Below are positions 41,101 through 44,100 of a stretch of DNA of 64,000 nucleotides, piece after piece. Made by a program: the position numbers. The DNA comes from Trypanosoma brucei. Lineage: Eukaryota. Positions within the stretch are counted from its first letter, which is position 1; every line of letters begins with the position of its first letter. Location: the NCBI GenBank assembly GCA_000002445.1, contig CM000208.1, forward strand, positions 640,001 to 704,000. The letters are read 5' to 3'.

Positions 41101-44100
41101 GCTGGTGTTCCCGACAAGGAAGCATTGTTGAATGCTTGCAAATCGCTTCGTGCTGCCTTAGAGGAGGAATCGAGACTTGCAGAAAAGGGTGTGGAGTTGC
41201 AACAACAACTTATATCATCACGGCAGCGAAGCACGGAAATGCACAACCGCCTTCAGAATCTCCGCCGAGACGCCGCCGATGGGCGTGTAGACGTCATAGT
41301 GCGCCGACTGAGAGACGAAATACAAACAAACAAAATGATTATTGAGGAGCAACTGCCGAAGGAATTGCAACAGAAGCAACGCGAGAACGCTGAATTTGAT
41401 CGTCTCATATCCGAACCATTAGATATGCAGGCTCTTACCACAGAGAACCAACAGCTTGACGAGGCGCTTAAAAAACTTCACCAACAAGTGAAAGAGCGAC
41501 AGAAACCAGGTGAAGATGGGAGTACAATTGCGACGATCAAACAACAGGTAGAGCGCGTGGCCAAACGGAAGGTGGAGGTAATGGAGCAACTTACCGGTCT
41601 TCAAGCCGACAACAGCCGAACGCTTAATGATATACGAGAGCGTGAGAACCGCATTGAGCAGCTCCGGGAGGCCCATCACATGCTGAAAGATGATGACTTC
41701 CGTGAATTTTCAAAGCAGGTACTGGCCAAGAAAGCAGCAACTGAGTCGATGCGGACTCATTTGTCAGAGCAGCGTGTCGAGTATGGTGTTTTAAACTTTA
41801 CTGAAAATGTCCTCAGGTCTCAGTTTACTTCACTGGATGCAGAAATTGGAGACTTGGAGGGGAAACTTGGACTTCAAGGGTACAGCCGCACAGTGGAAAC
41901 ACTGAGCAAACTCACTCATGAAAAGGATGCTATCGAAGGACTCAAGGGGAAGACACTGGAAGAGCTCTCCCGTGTCGTGCAGGACTTCACTATGGCAATA
42001 CGAGAGCGTCGGACGAAACTTGCACCACTCATTAACGAGCTCCGTAGCGTTCGTCAGACAGTAGCGGAGGTGGATCAGGAATGGGCAGAGAAAAAGACTC
42101 AGTACGAGTACCAGGAGAGCGTGCTCATGGAGGATATCACAAAGATCGAGCGTGAGGTGCAATCCCTTCATGAAGAGACGAGTACTGATGAGTCCGTATA
42201 CCACCGCCTGCAGGCGCAGCACTTGCTTCTCAAAGCCCACGTGGATCGTATAGAAGCCGAGAAGGACTTTGCGGAAATTGTTCGGCGGGGTGCAGAGGCA
42301 GCGGACGCCGCCGAAAAAGAGGGGGTCGTTTCAGGCTCGGGTTCCCTCAAGTGCGCGCACTGTGCCAAAGCGTGCGCTAACAAAGGATGGCTTCTGTACC
42401 ACCTCTGCAGGGAGCATGGTCTCACTGTCATGGCAGAGAAAGCCTTCGAGTCTGCCATTGAAGATCTACAAATACGATTACGGGATCTGCAGCAGAAGCA
42501 GCGGGACATCCAGGAGAATTATGAACAAAACGTGCAGCAAGTAGAATGGTTTGGAAATCTGAAGCGCGTACTGGAGGCGAAGCTTCGTACCTTGCACAAC
42601 GAGGGGTCGCGTTGCCGCAATGCACTTGACAGTGACATCAAGGAAATTATGGGTAGCGCAGGCGCTGGTGGAGCCAATGTTGACATGTTGGTACTTCCGG
42701 GTGACTAGGGCTTTCACTGCGCGGCGGAAGGCAGCTGGTCATGGTTCCGCAGCTGGATAGAATGATAAATGGAGTGAGTTTGTAGATACAGCAGCTTCAA
42801 TGAGGTGTGCGGGTAGGAGCTGGAGTCGAAGTAAATAGGTCGGAAGAAGGATGTGTTACATACAAAGGGAATTTGCAGATAATTGAGCTCCAAGGGGATT
42901 GGTAAAAGAAAAAAAAGTTGTGAAATGCATTAAGAAGCAGGAAGAAAAGTAAATATGAGGATAGGATACAATGTACAACCCGCGTCCCCAGAATGCTGAT
43001 CAAGGTTGTGGTACTTGCCGTGTTTGTTTTTGAAACACTGTGAACTGTGGGCGCCTAAATGTGAAAAGCCCAATTGTTACTGTGGTTCGGCGAGAAAGTA
43101 TCACAGAGGGGAAAGTGGCTTTGATCTCTCGCACGAAAAGGTGCAAAAATTGCTTTTTTTTCTTTACACCCGCCATCCTCCCTTTTTCATTTTGCTTATG
43201 AATGCGCTCGGGGATTCGTGTAGGTTGTGCAATAACATCGAAGGTGGGAGCGGAAACACGTTGCTGTTGTTGCAATCCCCATATATTCACTTCCTAATTT
43301 CAGCATTTACGCATTTTGTCACGAAATAGCAGGGCAACTATATTTTGTTTCGCGCCCTCATGTTTAACTCATTACTTTCACCCCGGTTTATCTTTTTTTT
43401 GTTATGTTATGGCAGTGGTCTTGTAGCGGAAAAAGACTCCATAGAATAGGCCTGTCAGCACATTGCTCTCATAGAGGTCGCCCTCTTTTGGCGTTATAGA
43501 TATAACCGTTACGTCGGTCCGTGCACGGTGGAATTCTCCCAGTTATCATTTCCTTCCCAGTCCTGTTTCGCGTCGCATAGAATGATATCTCAACCTACTG
43601 GAACCACACATGATGATGTGAATGAGCCAGTGGTTGATGGAAGTAATGCCGTGGCAGGTAACCTGGAAGGCACTCGGTTAGATACGAAGAAGTATGAGCA
43701 GGTTACTCCACTTGCAAGTTTCTCGCCCGATGAATTGTCAAAGCTACGTCATGTATTCCCTGACGCCTATCAAGCTCTGTTGCAGTATGAACAATTGTGT
43801 CGTCATAGTTCTGCGATAGTTCAGGTAAAAGAAACTGAGTTGCAACGAAGCATTGACGTCGGCCAAGAGGTACTTAGTCGAATAGATGCGCTACAGCTGC
43901 GGTGCGCTCAGCTGGCGAAGGAGCGTGATGATGCGCTTGCGATGGGTCAGGAACATGAGTCCCACTTACGGGAGAATATTGAGGAGTTGCAACAGCTTTT
44001 GGAAGAGCGAGAAAAGGAAATATCCCATTTGAAGGCGATGCAACATGATGTTGAGGATGAGGGGCGGCGCTTGCAGTCAAAACTTTCCGTTATGAGTCTT

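What the first reader, a model, noticed from the sequence alone, without database searches (positions are those of the whole stretch)
42352..42420. Perfect C2H2 zinc-finger consensus embedded in the coiled-coil of IFT81
Within the IFT81 homologue the sequence C-AH-C-AKACANKGWLLY-H-LCRE-H fits C-x2-C-x12-H-x4-H exactly, with the usual hydrophobic core positions (W/L, L). My recollection of metazoan IFT81 has no such finger. A metal-binding knuckle inside an IFT-B core coiled-coil would be a lineage-specific structural insertion, possibly stabilising the IFT81/IFT74 interface or binding nucleic acid or protein.
Basis: partly seen in the sequence, partly recalled or inferred. Interest (0 to 1): 0.5.

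Follow-up and report, generated by a model that had tools for sequence, protein, structure and literature searches.

The report
Trypanosoma-only zinc finger inside IFT81
The flagellar transport protein IFT81 of trypanosomes carries a small, conserved zinc-finger module at a hinge between two coiled-coil segments; no other organism sampled has it, and the hinge is where the GTPase pair IFT27/IFT25 docks in the Chlamydomonas model.

Summary
The motif is real. The ORF at 40402-42708 (+) is T. brucei-group IFT81 (768 aa). Its residues C651, C654, H667 and H672 (nt 42352-42417) fit C-x2-C-x12-H-x4-H, which about 3 in 100,000 composition-matched shuffles produce.

The finger belongs to a roughly 41-residue insertion found in all nine Trypanosoma IFT81 sequences recovered, with all four ligands invariant. 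The insertion is absent from Leishmania, Phytomonas, Strigomonas, Angomonas, Diplonema and animals, and from 148 cluster representatives of the IFT81 family; most of these carry no species name.

AlphaFold2 predicts a beta-beta-alpha finger both in isolation and in the full-length protein. Its 50 best PDB neighbours are all classical C2H2 fingers.

It does not interrupt a coiled-coil helix. It replaces the short loop between segments CC VIII and CC IX, which in the published Chlamydomonas model is the corner of the L-shaped cradle for IFT27/25.

The "perfect consensus" claim is overstated. The central aromatic residue is missing and Pfam zf-C2H2 scores below threshold.

The conserved exposed residues are hydrophobic, so a protein-contact or elbow-bracing role is most likely and nucleic-acid binding unlikely. 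That role is inferred, not shown. I found no published description. This is a new variant of a known protein, of moderate interest.

The parts
40402..42708 (+). IFT81 gene (768 aa; Tb927.10.2640-type)
   Evidence: ORF. Pfam IFT81_CH E 7e-38. 100% identical to annotated T. equiperdum/brucei IFT81. 6IAN_C and 8BD7_F match.
40522..40887 (+). Calponin-homology (tubulin-binding) domain of IFT81, residues 41-162
   Evidence: Pfam PF18383 covers residues 41-162.
41962..42318 (+). Long helix, residues 521-639: coiled-coil segments CC VII-VIII, ending just before the finger
   Evidence: Full-length AlphaFold2 secondary structure. Aligns to Chlamydomonas IFT81 up to residue 581. Segment naming from Petriman et al..
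42298..42429 (+). Trypanosoma-specific insertion, about residues 633-676. Its edges are approximate because loop alignment is arbitrary. The net gain is about 41 residues.
   Evidence: Alignments. Distance between conserved anchors H601 and Q713 is 113 aa here, against a median of 72 and a maximum of 85 in the other sequences of alignment A3 with both anchors.
42298..42345 (+). Variable acidic/Gly-Ser linker, residues 633-648, leading into the finger
   Evidence: Mean pairwise identity 0.31 over residues 626-648 among the nine Trypanosoma sequences, against 0.73 for the whole protein. pLDDT below 50 in the isolated model.
42346..42420 (+). C2H2 finger core, residues 649-673: strands 649-650 and 657-658, helix 661-672; ligands C651, C654, H667, H672
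   Evidence: Sequence. The four ligands plus G662, L664 and G673 are invariant in nine species. Beta-beta-alpha prediction with pLDDT about 85 and about 80 in full-length context. Foldseek top 50 are all C2H2 fingers. The profile hits C2H2 fingers in the 60 PDB sequences listed.
42436..42600 (+). Long helix, residues 679-733: coiled-coil segments CC IX-X, which in Chlamydomonas bind IFT27 and then IFT52C/46C
   Evidence: AlphaFold2. Residues 681-759 align to Chlamydomonas IFT81 594-665. Functional mapping from Petriman et al..

Best explanation
**Shown**
- Trypanosoma IFT81 carries a single classical-type Cys2His2 finger. It has beta-beta-alpha geometry and is presumably zinc-bound. It arrived as a roughly 41-residue insertion in the stem lineage of the genus.
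- The insertion replaces the short loop between coiled-coil segments CC VIII and CC IX.

**Inferred**
- In the Chlamydomonas IFT-B model that loop is the corner of the L-shaped IFT81/74 cradle for the Rab-like GTPase IFT27 and its partner IFT25. In retrograde trains this region lies against IFT-A.
- The finger therefore most likely acts as a protein-contact module. It would be a rigid, metal-stapled knob that braces the elbow. It would present a conserved hydrophobic face (G662, W663, L665, Y/F666) to the neighbouring coiled coil, to IFT27/25, or to IFT-A.
- It probably does not bind nucleic acid.
For: **The motif is real and unlikely by chance.** It is in frame and arose in 10 of 300,000 shuffles.

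**It is conserved.** All nine Trypanosoma IFT81 sequences keep the four ligands, G662, L664 and G673, while the adjacent linker is only 31% identical. In T. cruzi and T. conorhini the two finger cysteines are the only cysteines in the protein.

**It is restricted to one genus.** It is absent from 25 other kinetoplastid and 2 metazoan sequences, from Diplonema and from 148 representatives at 50% identity. None of these has a C2H2-like motif, or more than 85 residues, between the anchors.

**The predicted fold is a C2H2 finger.**
- The isolated 61-residue model has strands 649-650 and 657-658 and a helix at 661-671, with pLDDT about 85.
- The same elements appear in the full-length model, between helices 521-639 and 679-733.
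- All 50 best Foldseek PDB matches are classical C2H2 fingers, at rmsd 0.5-1.5 Å over 25-28 residues for the best-fitting ones.
- A profile of the insertion hits C2H2 fingers in all 60 PDB sequences listed, of 149 matched. The best single finger is ZNF217 finger 2, at i-E 0.0019.

**Location.**
- T. brucei residues 616 and 681 align to Chlamydomonas IFT81 581 and 594.
- Chlamydomonas IFT81 534-623 is CC VIII plus CC IX. It is L-shaped and cradles IFT27/25, and residues 581-608 form the IFT27 site.
- In retrograde trains the IFT81/74 C-terminus with IFT27/25 becomes ordered against IFT-A.
- In T. brucei, GDP-locked IFT27 cannot join IFT-B, and IFT27 is needed to import IFT-A and dynein.
Against: - Zinc binding and any partner contact are untested.
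- Pfam zf-C2H2 is below its gathering score (14.3 against 25.2 bits).
- The canonical central aromatic residue is missing.
- Foldseek E-values are not significant because the domain is tiny.
- T. vivax has Lys in place of W663, so the hydrophobic face is not invariant.
- The mapping to the IFT27 site relies on a Chlamydomonas AlphaFold and cross-link model, not on a trypanosome structure. The only T. brucei crystal construct stops at residue 478.
- Leishmania and other trypanosomatids manage without the finger.
- No IFT74, IFT27 or IFT25 sequences could be examined for co-evolving changes.
Confidence: 0.7

Rival explanations
1. The finger is a purely architectural staple. It only rigidifies or sets the angle of the CC VIII/IX elbow and touches no partner other than IFT81/74.
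For: It sits exactly at a hinge between coiled-coil segments. Hinges between IFT81/74 segments are described as points of flexibility. Its conserved hydrophobic residues could pack on the flanking helices.
Against: Nothing found here separates this from a partner contact. The 16-residue linker before the finger is poorly conserved and has low pLDDT, which suggests a tethered module and not a rigid brace.
Confidence: 0.25
2. The finger is a docking site for a Trypanosoma-specific cargo, adaptor or regulator, and has nothing to do with IFT27/25.
For: It is restricted to one genus. The IFT81/74 C-terminal half is flexible and faces the membrane in both train types, so it is accessible to cargo.
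Against: No candidate partner is known, and no donor protein or paralogous finger was found (itself a weak test). The exact placement at the IFT27 site would then be coincidence.
Confidence: 0.15
3. The finger binds nucleic acid (DNA or RNA), as most classical C2H2 fingers do.
For: The closest sequence and fold neighbours are DNA-binding fingers such as CTCF, ZFAT, ZNF217 and Miz-1. The finger core is net basic (direct reading of the sequence).
Against: It is a single finger with no tandem partner. The helix positions that read bases (-1, +2, +3, +6) are T/N/S, invariant Gly, Trp, and Tyr/Phe (Gln in T. grayi), not polar or basic side chains. The host is a flagellar transport subunit.
Confidence: 0.04
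4. The motif is a neutral leftover. It would be an insertion that happens to look like a finger but neither binds zinc nor matters.
For: Pfam is below threshold and the central aromatic residue is missing. Sister lineages function without the insertion.
Against: The four ligands, two glycines and Leu664 are invariant across nine species whose adjacent linker has drifted to 31% identity. Cysteine is otherwise rare in these proteins, at 2-7 per protein, and is kept here. The fold is predicted with fair confidence. The chance expectation is about 3e-5.
Confidence: 0.06

Closest known systems
IFT81 of other eukaryotes (Chlamydomonas 8BD7_F/8RUY, human, Leishmania)
   Same: CH domain and segmented coiled coil, colinear along the whole length. 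Conserved anchors lie on both sides of the insertion.
   Different: All others have a loop of about 10 residues where Trypanosoma has the linker plus finger of about 50 residues. The anchor-to-anchor distance is a median of 72 aa, against 113 aa here.
Classical C2H2 (Krüppel/TFIIIA-type) zinc fingers, Pfam PF00096
   Same: C-x2-C-x12-H-x4-H spacing, a 'C-G-K' knuckle in most species, Leu at helix position +4, and a predicted beta-beta-alpha fold. The best sequence and fold neighbours are such fingers.
   Different: It is a single finger inside a coiled-coil transport protein. The central Phe is replaced by small or polar residues. The base-reading positions are hydrophobic or Gly. Pfam scores it below the gathering threshold.
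EEA1 N-terminal C2H2 finger (PDB 3MJH)
   Same: Identical C-x2-C-x12-H-x4-H spacing, aligned without gaps. From my own knowledge, not tested here: it is a lone C2H2 finger attached to a long coiled coil that binds GTP-bound Rab5. This is an analogy for how a finger placed at the docking site of a Rab-like GTPase could work.
   Different: Only generic finger similarity (26% identity, hhalign probability 12%). The EEA1 finger is terminal, not inserted between coiled-coil segments. No evidence here shows GTPase binding.
Zinc-binding domains of IFT-A subunits (IFT121/122/144)
   Same: Zinc-dependent modules within IFT trains that mediate protein-protein interfaces (Lacey et al. 2024).
   Different: They are C-terminal domains of IFT-A WD/TPR proteins, not C2H2 fingers, and they are not confined to Trypanosoma (they were described in Chlamydomonas). 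This finger is in IFT-B and confined to one genus.
Rad50 zinc hook
   Same: A metal site associated with a coiled-coil protein at a break in the coil.
   Different: From my own knowledge: the hook is a CxxC at the apex of an antiparallel coiled coil, and two chains share one zinc. Here one chain supplies all four ligands with finger spacing, and IFT81/74 is a parallel heterodimer.

Membership tests
IFT81 | N-terminal IFT81 calponin-homology domain | tested here: met
   PF18383 E 7.3e-38, 130 bits against a cut-off of 27.4, residues 41-162.
IFT81 | Full-length colinearity with characterised IFT81 proteins (segmented coiled coil) | tested here: met
   6IAN_C E 5e-289. Chlamydomonas 8BD7_F E 1e-50 over residues 44-616 plus 681-759. 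The AlphaFold2 model is a series of long helices.
Classical C2H2 zinc finger | Ligand spacing C-x2-4-C-x12-H-x3-5-H | tested here: met
   C651-x2-C654-x12-H667-x4-H672, identical in nine species.
Classical C2H2 zinc finger | Conserved hydrophobic core: an aromatic residue four positions after the second Cys, and Leu at helix position +4 | tested here: inconclusive
   Leu664 is invariant. The aromatic position is C/S/C/A/S/T/N/N/S. Trp663, conserved in 8 of 9 species, might substitute.
Classical C2H2 zinc finger | Reaches the curated family score (Pfam PF00096 gathering threshold) | tested here: not met
   14.3 bits, E 0.058, against a cut-off of 25.2. However, a profile of the nine inserts hits C2H2 fingers in all 60 PDB sequences listed, with a whole-sequence E down to 1.9e-6 and a best single finger at i-E 0.0019.
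Classical C2H2 zinc finger | Beta-beta-alpha fold that brings the four ligands together | tested here: met
   This rests on prediction only. AlphaFold2 gives two short strands and a helix with pLDDT about 85. All top-50 Foldseek PDB matches are zinc-bound C2H2 fingers, at rmsd 0.5-1.5 Å for the best-fitting ones. Ligand distances could not be measured directly.
Classical C2H2 zinc finger | Binds one zinc ion | not testable with these tools
   Needs metal analysis of recombinant protein.
Rab/GTPase-binding C2H2 finger (EEA1-type) | Specific sequence relationship to the EEA1 finger | tested here: not met
   The spacing is the same, but hhalign probability is 12% and identity 26%. EEA1 is not among the top-50 fold hits.
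Rab/GTPase-binding C2H2 finger (EEA1-type) | Direct, nucleotide-dependent binding of a small GTPase | not testable with these tools
   Only positional inference is available: the insertion maps to the IFT27 site of the Chlamydomonas model.
Rad50-type zinc hook | A CxxC at the apex of an antiparallel coiled coil, with zinc shared between two chains | tested here: not met
   One chain holds Cys2 and His2 with finger spacing and a predicted autonomous fold. IFT81/74 coiled coils are parallel.

The most novel reading that the evidence does not exclude
The finger is a Trypanosoma-specific third wall of the IFT27/25 cradle. It would read the nucleotide state of the Rab-like GTPase IFT27, much as the EEA1 C2H2 finger reads Rab5-GTP, or it would bridge IFT27/25 to IFT-A. 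That would give a structural reason why in T. brucei only GTP-competent IFT27 joins IFT-B, and why IFT27/25 are needed there for IFT-A and dynein import and for flagellum construction.
Probability: 0.15. Interest if true: 0.65.

Novelty: new variant of a known kind. Interest (0 to 1): 0.45.

Why it matters
**A rare change in a conserved machine.** IFT-B core subunits are among the most conserved ciliary proteins, so a folded domain gained by one genus in the middle of IFT81 is unusual.

**Where it sits.** The position is functionally loaded. It is the elbow that holds IFT27/25 in the Chlamydomonas model, and that region meets IFT-A in retrograde trains.

**Why trypanosomes.** T. brucei is a main model for IFT, and there IFT27 and IFT25 have stronger phenotypes than in mouse or Chlamydomonas. 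The finger is a specific, mutable handle for asking why: a Cys-to-Ser change or a loop swap with Leishmania.

**Practical consequences.**
- The feature is parasite-specific and sits in a gene listed as essential.
- Trypanosome IFT81 is not a plain proxy for other IFT81 proteins in structural modelling.
- The existing T. brucei crystal construct stops before the finger.

Tried and rejected
**Pfam.** The whole protein and a 50-residue piece gave only sub-threshold finger hits, so Pfam alone neither proves nor disproves the finger.

**Search for a donor or paralogue.** I searched the insertion profile against 5.8 billion proteins. It returned three non-significant generic C2H2 hits and did not recover the Trypanosoma IFT81 sequences themselves. 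The negative result is therefore weak.

**Literature.** I searched for IFT81 with 'zinc finger', 'zinc-finger' or C2H2, and for the gene ID Tb927.10.2640. None of these searches turned up a description of the finger.

**EEA1.** The spacing is the same, but there is no specific similarity. I kept it only as a mechanistic analogy.

**Rad50-hook-like intermolecular zinc site.** Rejected on ligand count, spacing and parallel coiled-coil topology.

**Species of P0009.** I tried to identify the ninth Trypanosoma sequence (Logan run SRR19411327). No name was available.

**Partner proteins.** I could not obtain trypanosome IFT74, IFT27 or IFT25 sequences with the tools, so co-variation of the partners was not examined.

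**Antisense ORF.** The ORF at 42168-42509 (-) that overlaps the finger was not investigated. I regard it as a mechanical artefact of ORF listing.
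Full report
**Observation**

The window holds a 768-codon ORF at 40402-42708 on the + strand. In its frame, nucleotides 42352-42420 encode C651-AH-C654-AKACANKGWLLY-H667-LCRE-H672-G673.

The ORF is IFT81:
- Pfam IFT81_CH matches residues 41-162 at E 7e-38.
- The protein is 100% identical to annotated T. equiperdum/brucei IFT81.
- The T. brucei IFT81 chain of PDB 6IAN matches residues 27-478, with no mismatch in the printed alignment from residue 29 on.
- The gene ID Tb927.10.2640 is used for IFT81 in the trypanosome literature and appears in a table of essential genes.

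With 7 Cys and 19 His in 768 residues, the exact pattern arose in 10 of 300,000 composition-preserving shuffles. A looser finger pattern arose in 88 of 300,000.

**Distribution**

A search of 5.8 billion proteins returned 43 IFT81 homologues. I aligned 36 of them.

All nine Trypanosoma sequences carry the motif with the four ligands invariant. These are the brucei group, congolense, grayi, vivax, melophagium, conorhini, cruzi, rangeli and one unnamed assembly.

All 25 other kinetoplastid sequences and both animal sequences have a short loop in its place. In Leishmania the loop reads 'SLDPQHKTY'. The named kinetoplastids include Leishmania, Porcisia, Novymonas, Strigomonas, Angomonas and Phytomonas.

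A profile search of 1.84 billion cluster representatives gave 148 further IFT81 proteins. Most have no species name. Diplonema ambulator and Octopus were identified among them.
- Between two conserved anchors (H601 and Q713 in T. brucei numbering), the sequences of this alignment have a median of 72 residues. The longest apart from T. brucei has 85. T. brucei has 113.
- None of the 148 has a C2H2-like motif there.

The finger is therefore part of a roughly 41-residue insertion confined to the genus Trypanosoma. A euglenozoan outgroup and all sampled sister trypanosomatids lack it, so a single gain in the Trypanosoma stem is the parsimonious reading. This is an inference, and Paratrypanosoma was not identifiably sampled.

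**Conservation within the genus**

Mean pairwise identity among the nine species:

| Region | Identity |
|---|---|
| Whole protein | 0.73 |
| Finger, residues 649-674 | 0.61 |
| Linker before the finger, residues 626-648 | 0.31 |

Invariant residues within the finger core are C651, C654, G662, L664, H667, H672 and G673. Cysteine is rare in these proteins. T. cruzi and T. conorhini IFT81 have only two cysteines in total, and both are finger ligands. The extra Cys and His of the T. brucei finger (H653, C658, C669) are not conserved, so the canonical quartet is the ligand set.

**Is it a C2H2 finger?**

*For:*
- The ligand spacing fits.
- Most species have a 'C-G-K' knuckle.
- Leu occupies helix position +4.
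- An aromatic or hydrophobic residue lies two positions before the first Cys in most species.
- AlphaFold2 on a 61-residue piece with the nine-sequence alignment gives two short strands (649-650 and 657-658) and a helix (661-671), with pLDDT about 85 over the finger.
- The full-length model reproduces the same elements with pLDDT about 80.
- All 50 best Foldseek matches in the PDB are classical zinc-bound C2H2 fingers such as CTCF, ZFAT, ZNF217, Kaiso and Zif268. The best-fitting ones are at rmsd 0.5-1.5 Å over 25-28 residues. The E-values are not significant for so small a domain.
- A profile of the nine inserts searched against PDB sequences hits C2H2 fingers in all 60 sequences listed, of 149 matched. 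The best single finger is ZNF217 finger 2, at i-E 0.0019.

*Against or weaker:*
- Pfam zf-C2H2 scores 14.3 bits against a cut-off of 25.2.
- The canonical central aromatic residue is replaced by C/S/A/T/N. The PROSITE-style pattern therefore matches only T. brucei and T. grayi, where Cys is tolerated at that position.
- Zinc binding cannot be tested here.

I conclude it is a divergent member of the classical C2H2 fold. It is not a 'perfect consensus'.

**Position in IFT81**

The full-length model has a long helix at 521-639, then the linker and finger, then a long helix at 679-733. The finger therefore sits between helices and does not interrupt a coiled-coil helix.

HMMER aligns T. brucei 44-616 to Chlamydomonas IFT81 5-581, and 681-759 to 594-665. 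This places the insertion at Chlamydomonas residues 581-594.

Petriman et al. describe IFT81/74 as ten coiled-coil segments, with VII-VIII and IX-X each nearly continuous.
- CrIFT81 534-623 (CC VIII plus IX) forms an L that cradles IFT27/25.
- IFT27 touches both arms, and IFT81 581-608 forms the IFT27 site.
- CC X binds IFT52C/46C.

The Trypanosoma finger thus occupies the corner of that L. This is inferred from alignment to a modelled and cross-link-validated Chlamydomonas complex. No trypanosome structure covers it, because the 6IAN construct ends at residue 478.

In anterograde trains this half of IFT81/74 is flexible and points to the membrane. In retrograde trains it becomes ordered, binds IFT52/46, runs along IFT144/IFT122 of IFT-A, and IFT27/25 contact IFT-A.

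**Likely mechanism**

The helix positions that read bases in DNA-binding fingers (-1, +2, +3, +6) are T/N/S, invariant Gly, Trp (Lys in T. vivax), and Tyr/Phe (Gln in T. grayi). Leu/Val/Ile occupies position +5.

A lone finger with a conserved hydrophobic face, tethered by a variable acidic/Gly-Ser linker at a coiled-coil hinge, is best read as a protein-contact module. It would brace the elbow, or add a surface toward IFT27/25 or IFT-A, or both.

Two published results make an IFT27-related role attractive. In T. brucei, GDP-locked IFT27 cannot associate with IFT-B, and IFT27 is required for import of IFT-A and dynein. IFT25 is required for flagellum construction (abstract). Neither result proves the link, and Leishmania lacks the finger.

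A useful analogy is the EEA1 finger. It has the identical C-x2-C-x12-H-x4-H spacing. To my knowledge it binds Rab5-GTP next to a long coiled coil. The sequence similarity is only generic, with hhalign probability 12%.

Nucleic-acid binding, a Rad50-like shared zinc hook, and a non-functional chance motif are each disfavoured, for the reasons given under the rival explanations.

**Novelty**

The full-text searches for IFT81 with zinc finger or C2H2, and for the gene ID, turned up no description of this finger. The precomputed domain lists for these proteins show only the CH domain. Automatic pattern annotation of the T. brucei entry may exist, since it matches the PROSITE-style pattern, but I could not check this.

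I rate it a new variant of a known kind: IFT81 with a genus-specific C2H2 insertion at the IFT27/25 elbow. It is of moderate interest to IFT and trypanosome flagellum specialists and is readily testable.

**Limits**
- There are no metal, binding or phenotype data.
- Ligand convergence is judged from the predicted fold and superposition statistics, not from measured distances.
- Partner proteins (IFT74, IFT27, IFT25) could not be retrieved, so co-evolution was not examined.
- The search for a donor finger was uninformative.

Noticed in passing
window 1-64000: All 21 ORFs of at least 250 aa lie on the + strand. This fits a single polycistronic transcription unit, as is typical of trypanosomatid chromosomes.
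   Followed up: no
window 38935-39798 (+): The upstream neighbour of IFT81 is an IST1 homologue, a regulator of Vps4 in the ESCRT-III pathway (Pfam Ist1 E 3.8e-43).
   Followed up: partly
window 43528-47109 (+): The downstream neighbour is a 1193-aa protein with a coiled-coil-like, Gln/Glu/Leu-rich sequence and no Pfam family above threshold. Its function is unknown.
   Followed up: partly
window 42168-42509 (-): A 113-aa antisense ORF overlaps the finger-coding region. It was not investigated. I regard it as a by-product of mechanical ORF listing, not a gene.
   Followed up: no
P0006 (T. conorhini) and P0007 (T. cruzi) IFT81: These proteins contain only two cysteines in about 780 residues, and both are the finger's zinc ligands. 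This is a strong sign of selection on them.
   Followed up: yes
P0032-P0036 (unnamed kinetoplastid-like IFT81, 870-910 aa): These homologues are 870-910 aa long, against about 720 aa for other kinetoplastid IFT81. In P0035 the extra length is N-terminal, since the profile match starts at residue 175. They lack the finger, and the extension was not examined.
   Followed up: no
L001 (Logan SRR19411327 contig, gene 52-2382): This is a ninth, unnamed Trypanosoma-like IFT81 (67% identical to T. brucei) that carries the finger. The species could not be identified.
   Followed up: partly
(tool behaviour): The word-indexed search with the insertion profile did not return the Trypanosoma IFT81 proteins from which the profile was built. 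Its failure to find a donor finger elsewhere is therefore weak evidence.
   Followed up: no
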